A DNA stretch of 61,502 nucleotides, the filler included, from Diploschistes diacapsis (taxonomy: Eukaryota): NCBI GenBank assembly GCA_023645945.1. It is 11 parts of 11 records of this genome, joined end to end, with 100 filler letters (N's around TTAATTAATTAA, not from the genome) between each part and the next. Parts side by side here need not be neighbours in the genome. Positions count along the whole stretch, not along the records: positions 29,717 to 33,170 come from JALAIB010001913.1; positions 33,271 to 36,722 come from JALAIB010001914.1; 9 more parts are not named here. One strand, written 5' to 3'. Every line of letters begins with the position of its first letter. Position 1 is the stretch's first letter. Position numbers and translations under genes: made by a program. Below, piece by piece: positions 19,918-43,825 of this stretch. The notes below the pieces were generated by a model that saw only the letters and a program-made list of their open reading frames with translations, was not told the DNA's origin and made no database searches.

Positions 19918-21963
19918 ATGAACAGCGAAGCCAACCTGTCATGGCCCTCTATGGTTCATACCTCGGACGATGAATTCGCTAACTTCCTAAACCTACCTGA
20001 CCTGCCGGAGCTAGATATCGACTTTTCGAATTTCGATTCCGAAGCAGATGCAAATGCTGTCGCTGGTCGGGCCATACACGATGCACAACCATCGTTATAT
20101 GATCGCTGTGGTCGATCAGGGTACTACGCAGGAGATGCGGGTATGCGCGATGACACGATGATCCTAGAGCCTGCTTCGGCGACAGACATCAATATGCTAA
20201 AGGGGGGAATATCGGGCTTGCAAGTACAGTCGGGCAACAACACGCAAGTGGTTCGTCATGTGCACGCGGGCCAGCAGCCAACACAGTTCCATGGCCAGGG
20301 TCGAATCCCGCCAACTCCCACGAGCCTCGATATCAATGCTAATCGAAGCCATTTCGCTCCCGTGGACCCGCAACAACAGGCCATGTATGACGCTCACTTT
20401 CGGAAGCAGCAACAAGAGGTCTGTGTTCCTTCCCCCTTTTGAAATTTTACGACCTCTGTTACTGAACGAGGCAAGATGGTCTTTACGCCTCTGGGGACGC
20501 CAGCAGTGACCCCATTGGACCGCCAGTACCAGATGCCGGAATACACCACGCCAGGCGCATATTTCAGTCCACTCGCCTCGCCAGCGTTGATTCCTCAAAG
20601 CACAACCTCAGCCGAGCGATCTGCGTATCCTCGCTTTCATGCTTCAGATCATTCCGAGACTACTTCGCCCATCGACATGAATTTTGACCAGGCTCTGAAG
20701 GTAGCAGCAACTTCGGCGCCGGCGAGTAAGAGACAGAAGAAACGATCTCCCTCGGGCAGTTCAAGGCCGGCCGCCAGATCGGTACGTGAGTCGCCCGCAA
20801 TGAAACCTCAAAGGAAGAAGCAGTCGACGAGCACGGTGATTTCGGCCAAGGATGCCGCAGAGGTTATCGCCAGCGCTAGCAGACCCAAGACTTCCGGAGG
20901 CTCTCAGCGTACGAGAGATAGTTTATGGTTGCCTGCAAGTCGACACAACTCGGAGTCTGATTCGATATCACCCGAGCCACTCTCGGATCTGATGCCGCCT
21001 CCCGCAACCCCGAGACCTGGGTCTGCCGCAAAATCACCCTACATGACAGGGCAGATGGAAGTACAGTCGGCAAGTGGGCATGCAGCGAGCGCTTCCGCTA
21101 CCCCCAGGTCCTTGGTGGAGATCCAGAAGCCAAGCAACCGGCCTCGGCCCGGCTTAAAGGGGGATACCGAGATGCAAGACATTTCGCTCGGGGAAGCGGC
21201 CATGGATACGGCGACGTTCTTGCCCAAAATCGACACGTTAGTGACCGACGTTCAGCCAGCCCCTACGATTATGGGCCAGGGCGGCCACATAAGTGCATCG
21301 ACAACCGGCCCTGCGCCTATCCCGCCAAGCCCCACCGCGAGCTCTGCGCCCACCCCAAAGACCTTGGGTTCAAGGGCCAAAAATGATTTCAAAGTGCCAG
21401 CGAAGGGTAAGAAGCGCACCAGCTCGTCCCATGCCAGCCCCGCGCTGCGCCCCCGTATTTCTCCCAGCATCAAACCTTTGCTTCCTGAAGGAAGTAAGTT
21501 GTAACAGTCTCCAATTTCCCAAGATTCGAGGGTCTGACCGGTTGCAGCAAGCATGAACGCCGAGACGTCGGCGTTGCTCCTTGCCAGCAAGTCGAACTAC
21601 CAGAACCTTATCGAGGGCACGCATCTCCCCGGCGTGACGTATCCAGAGGCTCTTTCGGAGAACCTCACGAGCAAACGCACGTCGCACAAGATTGCCGAGC
21701 AGGGTCGACGAAATCGCATCAACACTGCGCTGCAGGAGATTGCTTCCTTGCTTCCACATGGCAGGGACCTGGAGACTGACGGGAGCGCAACGCCCTCGAT
21801 GGCGGCAGGTAACAGCAAAGCGACGACGGTGGAGGCGGCGATCGACTACATCAAGACGCTGCAGATGGAGCTCAGGGTGACAAAGGGAAAGCTGGCCGAT
21901 GCCGAAGGGAAGCTGGAAGATATGCAAGGCTCGAACGGGGTGGAAAGGGAGATGGAAGGTTAG
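19918..21963 (+). CDS. PHO4: Phosphate-response bHLH transcription factor Pho4/NUC-1/PalcA
   Basis: VFTPL..PAVTPL and YFSPLASPAL motifs, ALLLASKSNYQNLIEG, bHLH SKRTSHKIAEQGRRNRIN...NSKATTVEAAIDYI. Introns 20419-20475 and 21494-21547. Confidence 0.93.
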
Positions 21964-26061: not shown

Positions 26062-26161
26062 NNNNNNNNNNNNNNNNNNNNNNNNNNNNNNNNNNNNNNN
26101 NNNNNTTAATTAATTAANNNNNNNNNNNNNNNNNNNNNNNNNNNNNNNNNNNNNNNNNNNN
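26062..26161. other. Artificial contig linker (N44-TTAATTAATTAA-N44)
   Basis: The same 100-bp six-frame-stop spacer also occurs at 29617-29716, 33171-33270, 36723-36822, 40275-40374, 43826-43925, 47376-47475, 50924-51023, 54454-54553 and 57983-58082. Confidence 0.98.
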
Positions 26162-29301: not shown

Positions 29302-29967
29302 ATCGCTGCCTGTGGCAGGGAGACAGCAAAACCCGTTGCTGGACGATTGATCGTGGCCTCCCCATATCATTAAGCCCTAGCCTCGAAGGCTTCCGGGCCA
29401 CGTCTATTTTTCTTCAAACCGCTGTTTTTCGAATGACCCACGCAAAAGGTCTCATGAGTGACGATGTTCGACAACCCTTCAACCTTCGACCTCCTCTCCC
29501 TCTCCTTCCTCGACCGACCCTTTTTTATACCCCCACCACTTCATTTCCAACCTGCTGGCGCACTCGGCCATCAGCTTCGCAAATTTATGTCAAGCATTGA
29601 TAGAAATGGGGGGGGGNNNNNNNNNNNNNNNNNNNNNNNNNNNNNNNNNNNNNNNNNNNNTTAATTAATTAANNNNNNNNNNNNNNNNNNNNNNNNNNNN
29701 NNNNNNNNNNNNNNNNAAAATACTAGGCGATTATTAAACTTAAACGTCGCTAATTGAACCTTAAGTTCGCCAACTATAAAATCAAAAAAAACACGATTAT
29801 TTAAAAAACATAAATATATCTAATAAAACTTTTAAAGAAATTATCGTATAAACGAGAAAAATACGCGTTAAAGGTTCTTTTTTAATAATTATTTATAATA
29901 TTACTATTTAACTACGGAATCTATAGTAGCTATAGTGCTACTAGGGAGAGTCGCTTGTTCTTGCTGG

Positions 29968-30415
29968 TGTTATGATCTCTATCTCTACAACGTAGACACG
30001 AGGTATCGATCAAGGTAGGTTTGGTCTCGTATAGGAGAGGAGTGTAGGCAGGAAGAAGAAGAAGATCAAGTACGAGTCTGTATTAATTTCTAGAAGTATG
30101 CTGGATGATAGAGGGTATTAATATTGCATTGATCTATCTGTTAGGATAACATAAGGTCTGAACACGCCCGTTTTTATAGAAGTTATGGCGATGTTCTTAT
30201 ATAATCTAAAGTGATAGTTAGTCGTTGATAATAAAGCTGTCGCGATAGCGCTGTTATTGATAGAGGTTTATTATCGATAGATTTGTTTCTGATAGATATC
30301 TGTCGGTAGCCATCTATTAATCATATAATTAATTATATATAACGATAGATCGGGTAATGCTTTTTAATATTATAACGTTGTTAAGTGATTACGTCTAATT
30401 ATTTAGATCGTAATA
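29968..30415 (-). repeat. 3' LTR (about 450 bp)
   Basis: Termini TGTTATGA...TCGTAATA (RIP form of TG..CA inverted ends). Adjacent PPT complement ctatttctttctttt. First 100 bp or so shared with 39844 and 40959. Confidence 0.85.
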
Positions 30416-30507
30416 CTATTTCTTTCTTTTAATTTTGTCGGCCCGATAAGTTCCGAAGGGTAAGTATAAATATTAAATAAAAGAGAATCCTATGTCGTGA
30501 AATAACG

Positions 30508-31017
30508 ATGTCTTTTTTAATTACTCGTAATTATAGATTTGTTAATCGTATCTTTTAATTAGATAAAATTGTTGACTTTCTTTGTTTTTATTGTTTAGTC
30601 TTATATCGCTGTGTTATTATGCCGTTTATTTCTTTTTGTTGCGAAAGGTGCGCTCGTCTCGATCGGAAGAACTATATCTCGACATCTTAGGAGGTTATAG
30701 ATAAGGTACGTGTTTAGGTAGAATTTAAATTAGAATCGGAAGAGGAGAAAAGGCGAAAGCTCTTTTCTTAATTAGTAAAATATGAAGCCCGGATAGAGAG
30801 GTTCCGGAAGATTCTTAAACTAGTCGAAAAGAAATCTATCGAGTAAGCGAAATGTTTTGTCGATTAGTTGGATAAGGAGGTAGAAACGGTTGGGGACCCG
30901 AACAATAATATGGTGCTCGTGGGTAGTTTTTAGGATTTCCGGTATCTTAGCGTTCTGTCGCCTTCTTAAATCAATTGAGAATTAAGAGATGCCGACGTAA
31001 CGACTTCTTTCTTTTAG
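30508..31017 (+). pseudogene. Retrotransposon antisense ORF: Zn2Cys6-like cluster plus coiled coil (RIP-inactivated)
   Basis: 170 codons in one frame. C-x2-C-x5-C-x9-C-x2-C-x7-(C>Y), then STS(W)E..DKVR...EEEKRRKL..EARIERFRKILKL...AKCFVD(Q)L. Internal stops are all derivable from CAA/CAG/TGG by transitions. Confidence 0.75.
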
Positions 31018-31062
31018 GTTAGTATATAAAAAACTTATTTGTATGTGTTTTTTTTATAGTTG

Positions 31063-31135
31063 GATTTAGTAGTTCAATCGATAGAACGTGTGTTTATTTG
31101 ACGCGAGATCGCTGGTTCGATTCCGGCCTGGGTTA
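31063..31135 (+). tRNA. tRNA-like cloverleaf (RIP-degenerate pseudo-tRNA) inside the Gypsy 3' internal region; isotype uncertain
   Basis: GATTTAG-TA-GTTC-AATCGATA-GAAC-G-TGTGT-TTATTTG-ACGCG-AGATC-GCTGG-TTCGATT-CCGGC-CTGGGTT-A. Exact 73-nt geometry, intact B box GGTTCGATTCC, all stem defects are G-T pairs, T5 run at 31144-31148. Confidence 0.75.
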
Positions 31136-33449
31136 GTGAGGTGTTTTTAGTAATGTTTCACGACAATACCGAAGATTTCTTAGTTTTTTTCTTTTTTTCT
31201 TTTTCTTGTGAAGATGTTACTGCCTCTTTTTCGCTTCTTCTTGTCGTGATAGGCCCTTAACACGTCTTTATAGTTAATTAATACCCGTTATGGTTCTTAC
31301 GTATACTGGTCGTCTGGATATCTTTTTTATTTAATTAGGTAACCTCGAGGGTTATCGTTAAAGATTTTTTTAACTTTATATTCGGTTTCTTCGTTTGATT
31401 CGAAATAGAACGTGGTCTGAAATAATATATCTAAGTATGCTGATTTAAGTTTAAATATATGGAAAACCAGTGTTTTAAGTTTCGTATTTAGTGAGAGGAC
31501 GAGTCGGTAGGAAACCTTTAGTTATCCGTCCGTTATTTCTGGTTGCTCGTTTATAAGGAAAGGTCCGATCTTTTTATTGTTAAGCTTTTTAAAAGGTTTT
31601 AGTAAGCGAAGGTTATTAGCGAGTAAATAGACCTTATTTTCCTTTTTTAGTTGAAGATCTTTTTTAAATTGTGTTTATCTTGTTCTTTCTTAATGCTTTT
31701 TTCTTAATCGTAGTATTGTTTTAATAAATAAATCGGTATTTTTAATATCCTTTTTTTAATAATACCGACTTTTTAGTTCTTATTTGATTATTAATAACAG
31801 TTCTACCCAATTGTTTATCTCGTAGTTGACGTAATGGCGTAATATTTATTTTAATGTTTGATTTATTTTTTTCGTCTGTCTATTCGTTTGTGGATGGAAT
31901 GCTATTAAATGCTTAAATTTTGTTCCGAAGATCTGTATCATAATTTTTTAATAACTCGATATAAATAATAATCCGCGATTATTAATTATTTCTTTTAAGT
32001 GCCCGTTATGTCTTATCATTTTATCGGTTTATATTGCGTGTAACTTTTATGTATTGTAATCTTTTCTGAACGGTAGGTATATTGATTTGTTGTTAAATCT
32101 GTCAACGATTATTTAAATGGCGTCGTATTCGATATTTATTATTGGATTTCTGAATTTTGGTAGTTTTGTGATAAAATCCATTATGATTGATTACTATTAT
32201 TTCTATGGTTTGGGTATGATTTATGTAATACCGTACTTTTTGTGTGTTGAATGTTTGTTCTTCTGACAGCTTTCGTATTGTTTAATGAAGTCCGTAATTT
32301 GTTTCTTCATTCCTTTGAAATGGCAGTTTCGTTAAATAATTTTAATAGTATTCGTGATACCTTTATGTCCGTATTTCGGTGGATCATGATATTATCGTAT
32401 ATAATCTTAAATCCTCTCTACGGGAATATGTAACTTTTTTTTAATTATTGGATATTTTTCTTGTTAATCTTCGAGAATATTTATGATTGCGATAAATTTT
32501 TGAAAATCTGTTGTTAATGATCCGTTATCGTTGATCTTAAGTAACTTCGCTTGTCGTGATTTTCTGATTATATAGTCTAATCGTCGACTAAACGCGTCAA
32601 CTCGTTCGTTAGTTTTATTTGTAATTCGCTTGATCGTGAAACGATATCGTCCGAAAATTTCTGATCATCGAAACTATCTCGGGTTAAATTTTTTTGTCGT
32701 TGTGAACTTTAGTAAGTTTATATGGTTTATGTAAATTTCGGTTTTTTTTGTTTTATCTATATAGTTATACTATTCGTTTAGCGCTGCGATTATAACGAAT
32801 AATTTTTGGTCGTTTATATCGTAATTCTGTTTTATTAATAACATCTTTCGTGAATAACATGTTACTAACCGTTACTTGTCGTTACTGTCGGGTTAAAGTA
32901 AGTATGCCGTTATAGCTTGTTTTAAAGCATCGGTTTCGATTCGTATTGGTTTATTTGGATTATAAAATCCTAAGATAGGTGCGTTAATCGTAAAATCTTT
33001 GAATTTTTGGAACGTTTGTTCTTGTTTTGATGTCTATTTAAAAAATAAGTTTTTTCGTATAAGTCTAATTAATGGTTCTGTTTTTTTTAAATAGTTTTTA
33101 ATGAATTATCGGTTGTAATTAATGAATCTTAAGAAGGACTGGATATCTTTCACGTTCTTTAGGGTTAATTNNNNNNNNNNNNNNNNNNNNNNNNNNNNNN
33201 NNNNNNNNNNNNNNTTAATTAATTAANNNNNNNNNNNNNNNNNNNNNNNNNNNNNNNNNNNNNNNNNNNNATTATATAGAGATCTAAGTACCTAGTAGAG
33301 CCACAGTGAACTAGGCAGAATGCACATTAGGGCGCCATTAAATATGTTACACAATTTTACAGTAGGCAGAATAAGACATACCCTGATACCGGGGAAGGAA
33401 GATGATGATGAGTTGGGCGGGATGTGGCAGGAGGAGGGGGTGGAGTGAG

Positions 33450-40958: not shown

Positions 40959-43825
40959 TGTTATGATCTCTATCTCTATAACGTAGACACGAGGTATTGA
41001 TCAAGGTAGGTTTGGTCTCTGGTAGAAAAGGAGTATGGAAGGAGAAGAAATAGATCGCTTATAGGTCTATACTGATTTTTAAAAAGATTACTTTTTAATA
41101 ATAAAGATAACGAATATAAATTAATCTCGAACAATCGCTAAAGATATCTATTAAAATAAACACGTAAAACACAAATAATTTTAATTAAAAATTTATATAT
41201 CGAAACCTTCGAGGAAGTATTAATATCAGCTCCCATTGTTTCTCCGGAATAAAGGAAGCGGCGACGATATCTCCTATAGAACAGAAAGAACGCTATTTAT
41301 TATTCGCTTAAAACCTATAAATCGGCGCCTTTCGCTCCAATAACTCACGTGATACACGCGTTAATGAATTCCTAAATGAATGGCTGGGACGTGATAGGTC
41401 TATTACCTGAATCGTAATATTATCTTTTTCTTTCAGCATTATCGGCCCGACAATCCGCCGAAGGATTTAATTACATAAACGAAAACCTGTCCTTATTTCA
41501 TTCTTTTATAATGCATTCCTTCACTCGTCGTTAACGTAAGGTTATATACTACAACAGAAGAAAAGAACGTTTTCGTTTTACCGACGAAATTAAATCTTTT
41601 TAATATTTCTTTAAGATAGCCTGTAATTCTTGTTTAGTTTCCGATTATCTTTACTTTATGATTCTTTTTGATGTTAACGTTGGTTCTAATAAATGTTTTA
41701 AATATATTCGTTTAAAGAGGTCTTGTTCCTTTCGCTCGTGATTTTCGTTGGACAGGATCCGAAACTAATAAGCTGTTAAGTTGTTATCTTTAGAACGGGA
41801 TCGCGATTAAAAATTTAAAGAACTTTTTAAGATATAAATAAGAATTAATAAAGAACGTAAGGTTTAGGAATTAACGTAAAAGAAAGCGATCACGAAGATT
41901 CGTTACCTTGCCTAATAACTAAAGGATGATGGCAAGAATTTATTAATAGAGGATATTCTCGTATCGGCGGATTTTTAAGCAAAATTATTCGGTCTCTGGC
42001 CTGTTATTAAAATTCCTAGAAATATAGATGTAAATTAAGACATTCTACTTAACCCGGTGGTTTTTAATATCTCTTTCGCAAGAAGGAACCGCTGTTTCCT
42101 CGAGTTAAATCAGGTATACGTAAGTGTTTTAAACTTTTTAACCCTAGTCTTAGTTGTTCTTTATGAAGGGTCCATTGACCTTATAAAACTTTATTAATTT
42201 TTTTTTGTAGTTCTTTAGGTTTTCCTTGGATTCTTATGTCATATCTAACTCTAGATATTCTTTTTACTTGATTAAGTACTTGTCGTCTTTATAATATACG
42301 ACTGCTTCGACTTCGTATTCGTTCTCGTTATTTAATTTAAAGTAGAAGATTTTCTATAAAGGTGTATCTAGGTATACTAGTTCGAGGTATCTTGAATAAA
42401 ATACTAGATATATTTTAGTATCTTTTAATAGCTTGAGTCGATAGCTGACTCGTTTAGTTTCGTCCGGTATGACGGGTTATTTATCGATAAGGAAGGGTTC
42501 GACTTTGACGTGATCTAGTTTTTTAGAGGGTCTACGTGTTTTGAGGTTATTTATGTATAAATAGATCTTATCTTCCTTCTTTAGCTGAGGATTCTTTTTT
42601 AAGATTCTAAATCTTTTAATATTATTCAGTGCCTCGTTGTTTAATAATTATATATTTTAAATCTTCTTAACTTCTTTATATCTGTTATTAAGGTAGTATT
42701 CGGCGTTCGGTAACAGTTTAATTTAATTGTTTATATTTTAATTAACGTAATATCGTAAGTATTGTTTAAAAGTTTAATTTATTCTTTCTGTTTGACCGTC
42801 TATTTATGGGTAATAAGCGTTTAAATACTTTAGCTTCGTACCGAACGCTTTTATTATGGTTTTCTAATATCTTGAGGTAAAGAGCTTATCTCTGTCGTTA
42901 ATGATTTCGTCTGGATGTTTATGAATCTTTATAATTCGATTTATTCATATATGATGTAATTATCTTACGTTGTAGTCTTTTCTGAAAGGTATGTAATGCG
43001 GTTTGTTATTAAACTTGTCTATTATGACCTAAATGTTGTTATATGAAACACCTATCATTGGATCCTTAGATATTAATAGTTTAATTATAAAGTTTATCGT
43101 GATTATCTTTTATGATTGATCTGGTTTCTTAATGGTTTATGGAATCCCGTATTGTTTATACGTAGAATGCTTGTTCTTTTAATAGCTCTCGTATTATTTA
43201 ATAAAATCCGTGATTTATTTCTTTATTCTTTCGAAATAACAGTTTCGTTGAATAATTTTAATAATATTTATAATATCTTTATATCCGTATTCCGGTGAAT
43301 TATGGTGTTATCGTATATAATTTTATATCTTTTCGGTAAGAATCTATAGCTTCCGTCGTATTATTAAATATTGTTCGTGTTAATCTTTTAAGATATTTAT
43401 AACTGTTATAAATTCTCGAAAATCTGTTATAAATGATTTATCATTATTAATCTTTAATAATTTAACCTGACGCGGTTCTTTTGTCATATAGTCTGGCCGT
43501 TTGCTCAACGCGTTAGTCCGTTCGTTTGCTTTATTTGCGATCTTTTTAATTGTAAAACGATATCGTTCGAGAATCTTTAATTAACGAAACTATTTAGGAT
43601 TAAGTTTCTTTATCGTCGTGAACTTTAATAAGTTCATATGGTTTATATAAATTTCGGTTTTCTTTGCTTCGTGAACATAGATGTATTATTCGTCTAAAAT
43701 AACGATTATGGCGAATAATTTCTAATCGCCTATGTCGTAATTAATTTTTATTAATAACATCTTTCTCGAGTAACAGGCTATCAGCCGTCACTTATTATTA
43801 TTGTTAGATTATAATAGGTATATTA
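40959..43825 (-). mobile_element. Second, divergent RIP-mutated Ty3/Gypsy chromovirus, 3' half
   Basis: Colinear with 29968-33170: RNase H (NYDIGD.KLFAII, NALSKRPDY), integrase, VKVEPFLI, chromodomain ENEYEVEAVV...YLIK(W)K.Y...MT(W)E. 3' LTR 40959-41419 with adjacent PPT. Confidence 0.92.
41511..42038 (+). pseudogene. Retrotransposon antisense ORF: Zn2Cys6-like cluster plus coiled coil (second homolog)
   Basis: 176 codons in one frame. ACNSC-x6-(C>Y)-x13-CFK(C>Y)IRLKRSC-SFRS(W)FSLDRIR...LERDRD...KIR(C)LA..L. Confidence 0.75.

What the first reader, a model, noticed from the sequence alone, without database searches (positions are those of the whole stretch)
31063..31148. Complete tRNA-like Pol III cassette embedded in the Gypsy element, downstream of the antisense ORF
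Seen: a 73-nt cloverleaf with exact tRNA spacing (7-bp acceptor, 4-bp D stem, 5-bp anticodon stem, 5-nt variable loop, 5-bp T stem with TTCGATT). It has an A-box-like TAGTTCAATCGA, B box GGTTCGATTCC and a T5 run 9 nt later. Every stem defect is a G-T pair, as expected if C>T mutation hit a perfect structure (GACCCAG/CTGGGTC). The anticodon loop TT-ATT-TG is non-canonical and may be Asn GTT-derived. It sits about 45 bp from both the antisense ORF stop and the pol stop, antisense to pol and far from where a PBS would be, with no visible SINE body. Established: Cassandra elements carry 5S-derived Pol III units, and TFIIIC-bound B boxes act as chromatin barriers in yeasts. Inference: an element-encoded primer RNA, an insulator against heterochromatin, or a processing signal for the antisense transcript.
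Basis: partly seen in the sequence, partly recalled or inferred. Interest (0 to 1): 0.7.

Follow-up and report, generated by a model that had tools for sequence, protein, structure and literature searches.

The report
tRNA mimic ending retrotransposon antisense gene
Some branches of a mutation-wrecked fungal jumping-gene family carry a tRNA-shaped sequence that cannot read codons, placed just behind the stop codon of the element's backwards-facing extra gene, where it may have served as a cut-here or stop-here signal; no function is shown.

Summary
The cloverleaf is real (Rfam tRNA 40.5 bits, cut-off 29) and belongs to the element. It sits in a RIP-mutated Ty3/Gypsy chromovirus, antisense to pol. 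Eight copies of four structural types occupy the same slot in this genome; 7 of 64 informative copies carry it. In 8 of 8 the antisense ORF ends in frame 30-33 nt before the cloverleaf. The arms keep their pairing while the anticodon loop changes freely (5, 7, 49 or 52 nt), so it does not decode. Two parts of the 'complete Pol III cassette' fail: the T5 run is missing in the sister copy, and the TATA-looking stretch upstream is the antisense ORF's stop codon after RIP. A primer role is unlikely: the PBS does not match the tRNA 3' end, is shared with tRNA-less relatives and pairs with the LTR (Tf1-type self-priming). Best guess (0.4): an RNA-level tRNA mimic that ends the antisense transcript. 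Rivals: Pol III/TFIIIC barrier, or passenger. No RNA data were available. This scan noted a similar arrangement in other fungal genomes (notes not checked by me); my paper searches found no description.

The parts
31063..31135 (+). tRNA-like cloverleaf (type 1), non-decoding loop at 31094-31100
31070..31081 (+). A-box-like D-arm sequence
   Evidence: sequence; kept in the other cassette copies
31114..31124 (+). B box / T arm
   Evidence: sequence
31030..31062 (+). 33-nt U-rich leader = 3' UTR of the antisense ORF; homologous in all cassette types, absent from tRNA-less copies
31027..31029 (+). Probable stop codon of the antisense ORF (gives the TATA-like look after RIP)
   Evidence: in frame in 8 of 8 copies; C2994 reads ACA-TGA
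30439..31029 (+). RIP-broken antisense ORF (Cys-rich plus coiled-coil look); start not determined
   Evidence: tblastn to antisense-strand stretches of relatives L088 (E 1e-8), L082, L097, L098; no Pfam or database hit
31144..31148 (+). T5 run, probably RIP-made, not a reliable Pol III terminator
   Evidence: C731 has TCTTT
31180..33170 (-). RIP-broken pol remnant: RNase H, integrase, SH3, weak chromodomain; cut by the contig end
30416..30431 (-). Polypurine tract
29968..30415 (-). 3' LTR (448 nt)
30158..30165 (-). Predicted self-primer (GTGTTCAG), about 35 nt behind the LTR TATA at 30197-30204, complementary to the family PBS
40959..43825 (-). Second, more distant family member (68% identical over integrase) with no tRNA-like unit

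Best explanation
A tRNA-gene-derived, non-decoding module that a lineage of an autonomous fungal chromovirus carries as the 3' end of its antisense gene. Shown: position, presence in several subfamilies, in-frame stop 30-33 nt upstream, conserved arms, free anticodon loop. Inferred: the antisense transcript, probably started in or near the 3' LTR, runs through the antisense ORF, the short U-rich UTR and the cloverleaf. RNase P and RNase Z recognise the acceptor/T/D-arm fold and cut it out, which fixes the mRNA 3' end or opens the downstream RNA to 5'-3' decay, so antisense transcription stops before it runs through pol and gag towards the 5' LTR. It would work like mascRNA/menRNA (recalled), and it is optional.
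For: In 8 of 8 copies the antisense frame ends at the same two codons 30-33 nt before +1, through four different junction lengths. The leader occurs in the 7 cassette copies and in 0 of the other 57. Type 2 against type 3: 0 transversions in 66 body positions against 9 in 48 loop-insert positions (Fisher p 2.6e-4). Type 1 against type 2: 15 transversions, 12 of them on both sides of 6 pairs, none one-sided (0 of 200000 random placements), while the leaders differ by 1-3 of about 39. Pairing matters to an RNA, whereas TFIIIC reads only the boxes (established knowledge). No stable terminator or TATA for type 1. The yeast TFIIIB roadblock peak lies 65 bp upstream of tRNA genes (PMC5052057, passages), which here would fall inside the ORF.
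Against: 57 of 64 informative copies lack it. 0 of 55 related loci from other samples give an Rfam tRNA (many lack the region), so it is dispensable. Copy C2994 has 3 broken pairs that RIP cannot explain and a shortened anticodon arm. The two-sided changes could come from two different donor tRNAs rather than selection, and four of the six pairs may be one register shift. In-frame junctions are expected of any working ORF. An RNase P cut leaves no poly(A), and I saw no MALAT1-like triple-helix motif by eye (not tested with a tool). Types 2 and 3 have T5-T7 runs within 16 nt in 4 of 4 complete copies, which fits a Pol III gene.
Confidence: 0.4

Rival explanations
1. A Pol III gene or TFIIIC site acting on DNA: a chromatin barrier or a roadblock between the two convergent genes, with the RNA a by-product.
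For: A and B boxes are kept in all complete copies. Types 2 and 3 look like an intron-bearing tRNA gene; their 3' half matches host tRNA-Ile(TAT) at 31-32 of 35 allowing for RIP, next best 28-30, and T runs follow. In yeast TFIIIB and TFIIIC both block Pol II, TFIIIC near the tRNA start site (PMC5052057, passages).
Against: T5 of type 1 is absent from C731, and type 1b has no T run within 49 nt. The TATA look is the ORF stop codon. A DNA-bound block would also hinder the element's own full-length transcript (inference). Two-sided stem changes are not needed for box binding.
Confidence: 0.25
2. A neutral passenger: a tRNA gene captured once or twice by template switching and shuffled among subfamilies by recombination.
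For: Minority presence (7 of 64); scattered on the chromodomain tree (5 changes for 6 rows of 57, shuffled mean 5.8, 83 of 500 shuffles as low); decay in C2994; absent from intact relatives.
Against: Body conserved while the enclosed insert is no more alike than shuffles (47-113 of 500 shuffles as good); fixed spacing to the stop; earlier scan notes report the same slot in other fungi (unchecked).
Confidence: 0.25
3. An element-encoded primer for reverse transcription (or a competitor for the PBS).
For: The type 1 anticodon arm of C731 holds GTGTTC, 6 nt complementary to the PBS.
Against: The PBS does not start with TGG and matches the cassette 3' ends at only 11-13 of 18 purine/pyrimidine positions. 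The same PBS motif follows the LTR end in 20 of 80 related loci with no tRNA hit. A complementary heptamer lies just behind the LTR TATA in 54 of 58 LTR rows. Self-priming is described for the Tf1/Sushi group (PMC6317226, passages). Types 2 and 3 lack the 6-mer at that place.
Confidence: 0.04
4. An independent SINE or tRNA insertion in this copy, or a working host tRNA.
For: The Rfam score is over the cut-off.
Against: Same slot in 8 copies. A genome-wide leader-plus-A-box pattern gave 8 matches, 7 of them cassettes and one with no cloverleaf. No tail or flanking duplication seen; the cassette replaces part of the pol/ORF junction. Loop has C33 and T37.
Confidence: 0.03

Closest known systems
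Helenus / TRIMp3, with Cassandra and Ajax (Kojima 2024, PMC10886601; abstract, passages and sections 2.1, 3.1 read)
   Same: tRNA-derived, mostly non-decoding sequence carried by an LTR retrotransposon, in fungi too; not complementary to the PBS.
   Different: Helenus is non-coding, under 1 kb, with the tRNA-like part inside the LTRs as a proposed promoter for genomic RNA. Here the element has gag-pol and the unit is internal, antisense, behind an antisense ORF. Kojima screened only LTRs and kept only TRIMs.
Boty with antisense gene brtn (Zhao et al. 2011; seen only as cited in PMC7264820, passages)
   Same: Fungal Ty3/Gypsy with an antisense ORF between pol and the 3' LTR.
   Different: The passages I read mention no tRNA-like unit; homology of this ORF to brtn was not tested.
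Tf1/Sushi-type self-priming chromoviruses (PMC6317226, passages)
   Same: Chromodomain integrase; PBS not tRNA-complementary but complementary to the predicted transcript start.
   Different: Predicted duplex here is 7-8 nt (11 nt in Tf1, recalled); Tf1 carries no such cassette (recalled).
mascRNA / menRNA of MALAT1 and NEAT1 (recalled; PMC10275265 passage mentions only the MEN beta tRNA-like RNA)
   Same: Non-decoding tRNA-like fold directly behind the 3' end of a Pol II transcript.
   Different: Vertebrate lncRNAs with a triple helix; here a coding antisense gene in a fungal retrotransposon, cleavage not shown.
crapaud of Podospora (PMC10787394, term search and passages)
   Same: RIP-hit fungal Gypsy family with many recombining LTR subfamilies; an earlier scan note places a similar module in crapaud-like copies.
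   Different: The main text has 0 occurrences of 'tRNA' or 'antisense'; supplements not read; relation to this family not tested.

Membership tests
Functional nuclear tRNA gene | Cloverleaf scoring over the Rfam tRNA cut-off | tested here: met
   40.5 bits; C731 46.1 bits
Functional nuclear tRNA gene | Canonical anticodon loop (U33, purine 37) | tested here: not met
   T37 in both type 1 copies, C33 in C731; other types 5, 49 or 52 nt
Functional nuclear tRNA gene | T-run terminator just downstream | tested here: inconclusive
   T5 only in C1017 for type 1; T5-T7 within 16 nt in types 2 and 3; RIP inflates T runs
Functional nuclear tRNA gene | Pol III transcription and processing | not testable with these tools
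   only DNA contigs could be laid
Helenus / TRIMp3 | tRNA-like sequence inside the LTRs | tested here: not met
   LTR is 29968-30415; unit lies about 650 nt inside
Helenus / TRIMp3 | Non-coding, under 1 kb | tested here: not met
   pol domains; gag-side contig C1272 joins C731 at 83%
tRNA-derived SINE | Dispersed copies with body, tail and target-site duplication | tested here: not met
Ty3/Gypsy chromovirus (host element) | RNase H then integrase, with chromodomain, LTRs, PPT | tested here: met
   Pfam RNase H and integrase zinc finger over cut-off; Chromo weak (E 0.046) but relatives carry PF00385; LTR and PPT
Tf1-type self-priming | PBS complementary to the transcript 5' end in the LTR | tested here: met
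   54 of 58 own LTR rows. Of 7 relatives with this PBS: exact 7-8 nt in 3, one transition off in 3, none clear in L096. Start site predicted from TATA, not mapped
mascRNA-like 3' processing element | RNase P/Z cleavage of the host transcript at the tRNA-like fold | not testable with these tools
   geometry only
mascRNA-like 3' processing element | Stabilising triple helix upstream | not tested
   none seen by eye in the 33-nt leader

The most novel reading that the evidence does not exclude
Autonomous fungal chromoviruses have repeatedly recruited tRNA folds as an RNase P/Z-cut 3'-end and termination signal for their antisense regulatory gene: a mascRNA-like device on a protein-coding retrotransposon transcript that keeps antisense transcription from silencing the element.
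Probability: 0.3. Interest if true: 0.8.

Novelty: new variant of a known kind. Interest (0 to 1): 0.5.

Why it matters
tRNA- and 5S-derived parts of LTR elements are described in the LTRs of non-autonomous TRIMs, as promoters. An internal, antisense, fold-conserved tRNA mimic tied to the stop codon of an antisense gene would be a different use. It would bear on how elements with antisense ORFs limit antisense transcription, and could show tRNA-processing enzymes ending a coding transcript in fungi. In practice such modules give false tRNA calls (Asn here, Thr in C731) in RIP genomes.

Tried and rejected
No RNA holder was listed for the stretch; this says nothing about expression. Laying four DNA runs showed a 947-nt contig with 80 differences across the ORF end and cloverleaf in X1 (X1 may be the source sample), cover in X2, next to none in X3 and X4; contigs show nothing on transcription. 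IMG/VR scans gave nothing with two single proteins and 3 loci without tRNA with an alignment. ARAGORN at relaxed thresholds was noise. The antisense ORF read with X had no database or Pfam hit; no Atlas result is available for it. Rfam missed types 2 and 3 (only C2994, 26.7 bits, among 20 loci); they rest on blastn, motif search and hand annotation. The chromodomain tree is poorly resolved (27 of 54 inner branches open; short and unrelated rows left out). I first read the upstream ATATAAAAAC as a TATA box and dropped that. No host donor for type 1: best 24-25 of 31 and 25 of 35 among 30 host tRNA loci, a set known to be incomplete (63 of 1216 candidates scored). Paper searches for this arrangement found only Helenus/Cassandra-type work; subscription journals and Repbase reports are not covered.

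Full report
Setting. The window is a string of contigs joined by N-linker-N spacers. The finding lies in contig C1017 (window 29717-33170) of a 29-Mb fragmented fungal assembly with RIP signatures. The best-holding public run is labelled lichen metagenome and may be the source. On the minus strand the contig holds the broken end of a Ty3/Gypsy pol (RNase H, integrase, SH3, weak chromodomain), a PPT and a 448-nt 3' LTR at 30415-29968. On the plus strand lie a broken antisense ORF and then the cloverleaf.

Observation. ARAGORN and Rfam both find the 73-nt unit (40.5 bits, cut-off 29), the only Rfam match in the window. It folds as a cloverleaf but is no more stable than shuffles. Seven of 21 stem pairs are G-T and none is otherwise broken. 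C731 is collinear at 80-84% (472 transitions, 10 transversions) and has the unit at the same place (46.1 bits). That copy corrects three details. The T5 run reads TCTTT there. The loop has C33 and T37, so it cannot be a normal anticodon loop. Three of the G-T pairs are shared and in TG context, which RIP here mostly spares (0.15 against 0.47-0.67), so they probably predate RIP.

A family of cassettes. I fetched most, not all, of the 101 integrase-end matches in the genome. Of 64 copies with at least 270 nt behind the chromodomain, 7 carry a leader plus cloverleaf and the other 57 carry neither. There are four types: type 1 (C1017, C731; 7-nt loop), type 1b (C2994; shortened arm, 3 broken pairs, 26.7 bits), type 2 (C1503, C1941, C1593, C3428; 49-nt insert in the loop) and type 3 (C2938; 52-nt insert). 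A genome-wide pattern found 7 of these plus one chance match without a cloverleaf, with 0 control matches, so I saw no free SINE-like copies. The leaders are homologous (0 of 1000 shuffles reach the score). The cassette sits in at least three antisense-ORF backgrounds and is scattered on a poorly resolved chromodomain tree, which points to module shuffling. The 3' halves of types 2 and 3 are closest to host tRNA-Ile(TAT), an intron-bearing gene, by a modest margin; type 1 has no clear donor among 30 host loci.

Signs of constraint. Transversions are not made by RIP, so I counted those. Types 2 and 3 differ at 0 of 66 body positions but at 9 of 48 insert positions (p 2.6e-4), and the inserts are no more alike than shuffles. 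Types 1 and 2 differ by 15 transversions, 12 on both sides of six pairs and none one-sided. This is either selection on the fold or replacement by a second tRNA at the same junction; four of the six pairs may be a single register shift. In 8 of 8 copies the antisense ORF frame ends at the same two codons 30-33 nt before the cloverleaf, through four junction lengths. What looks like a TATA box is this stop codon after RIP (C2994 reads ACA-TGA). So the cassette is the 3' end of the antisense gene.

Primer idea. Twenty-two LTR-PBS rows from 20 loci (of 41 matches) share one PBS that does not match the cassette 3' ends (11-13 of 18 purine/pyrimidine positions). The same motif follows the LTR in 20 of 80 related metagenome loci. 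A complementary heptamer lies about 35-40 nt behind the LTR TATA in 54 of 58 own LTR rows (some rows repeat one LTR) and in intact relatives L091 and L093; it was exact in 3 of 7, one transition off in 3 and unclear in L096. This is the self-priming described for Tf1/Sushi elements (PMC6317226, passages). The only link to the cassette is a 6-nt match in type 1.

Against necessity. 57 of 64 own copies lack the unit. Rfam found no tRNA in 55 of the 83 related loci that I scanned, and blastn with seven cassette copies hit none of the 83; many of these loci are distant or lack the region. In most of the 26 relatives examined, an antisense ORF ends close to the pol end, and none has an antisense B box.

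Mechanism. Shown: an optional, non-decoding, tRNA-derived module fixed behind the antisense stop codon. Inferred, most likely (0.4): it acts as RNA, cut by RNase P/Z as mascRNA is (recalled), ending the antisense transcript before pol. The arms these enzymes read are kept and the loop they ignore is free (established knowledge). A TFIIIB roadblock peaks 65 bp upstream of yeast tRNA genes, which here would lie inside the ORF, while a TFIIIC block near the start site would fit (PMC5052057, passages); a Pol III or barrier role gets 0.25, helped by the T runs behind types 2 and 3. A passenger gets 0.25. No expression evidence exists either way.

Comparison and novelty. It is not Helenus (internal, antisense, autonomous host; PMC10886601), not a SINE and not a working tRNA. 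The host architecture recalls Boty with brtn (via PMC7264820). Six paper searches found no description, and the crapaud paper's main text does not mention tRNA. Earlier notes of this scan report a tRNA-shaped unit at the same slot in other fungi; I could not check them, and a sequence look-up found no look-alike. Verdict: real, element-borne, a new variant of a known kind; interest 0.5, held down by the lack of an intact copy and of RNA data.

Noticed in passing
L019 (G000:C668 about 42830-42950, minus strand): Host tRNA gene with a 47-nt GT-AG insert bearing a branch-point-like motif in the D stem; after removing it ARAGORN calls an intron-free tRNA-Gln(CTG). Looks like a spliceosomal intron in a tRNA gene; the scan has many such notes.
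   Followed up: partly
L245 (G000:C624 about 20250-20385, plus strand): Host tRNA gene with a 52-nt GT-AG insert with TACTAAC in the anticodon stem plus a 10-nt ordinary intron. By my reading tRNA-Thr(AGT); ARAGORN still labels it Ser after removal. L024, L243 and L244 may be similar.
   Followed up: partly
L018 (G000:C2269:20547-20618) and L017 (G000:C4309:6140-6214): L018 is a near copy of the tRNA-Met(CAT) gene in L010 (initiator-like by recall) but with anticodon CAG; L017 has an irregular loop that ARAGORN cannot assign.
   Followed up: no
run X2 laid on window 31095 to 29967: A contig reads a type 1 cloverleaf 3' half into the B box and then jumps to the LTR end, as if an LTR had inserted into the cassette; others lack 1-2 nt in the loop.
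   Followed up: no
window 40959-43825 and about 60 other contigs: The family is a mosaic: shared PBS, PPT and LTR ends but at least four kinds of antisense-ORF region and several LTR types.
   Followed up: partly
G000:C466:5318-5716 and C615:1873-2190: Chromodomain-integrase matches without stop codons, apparently other elements that escaped RIP.
   Followed up: no
window 26062-26161 and nine more places every 3.5 kb: N44-linker-N44 spacers are assembly joins between unrelated contigs; the periodic repeat D1 is an artefact.
   Followed up: yes
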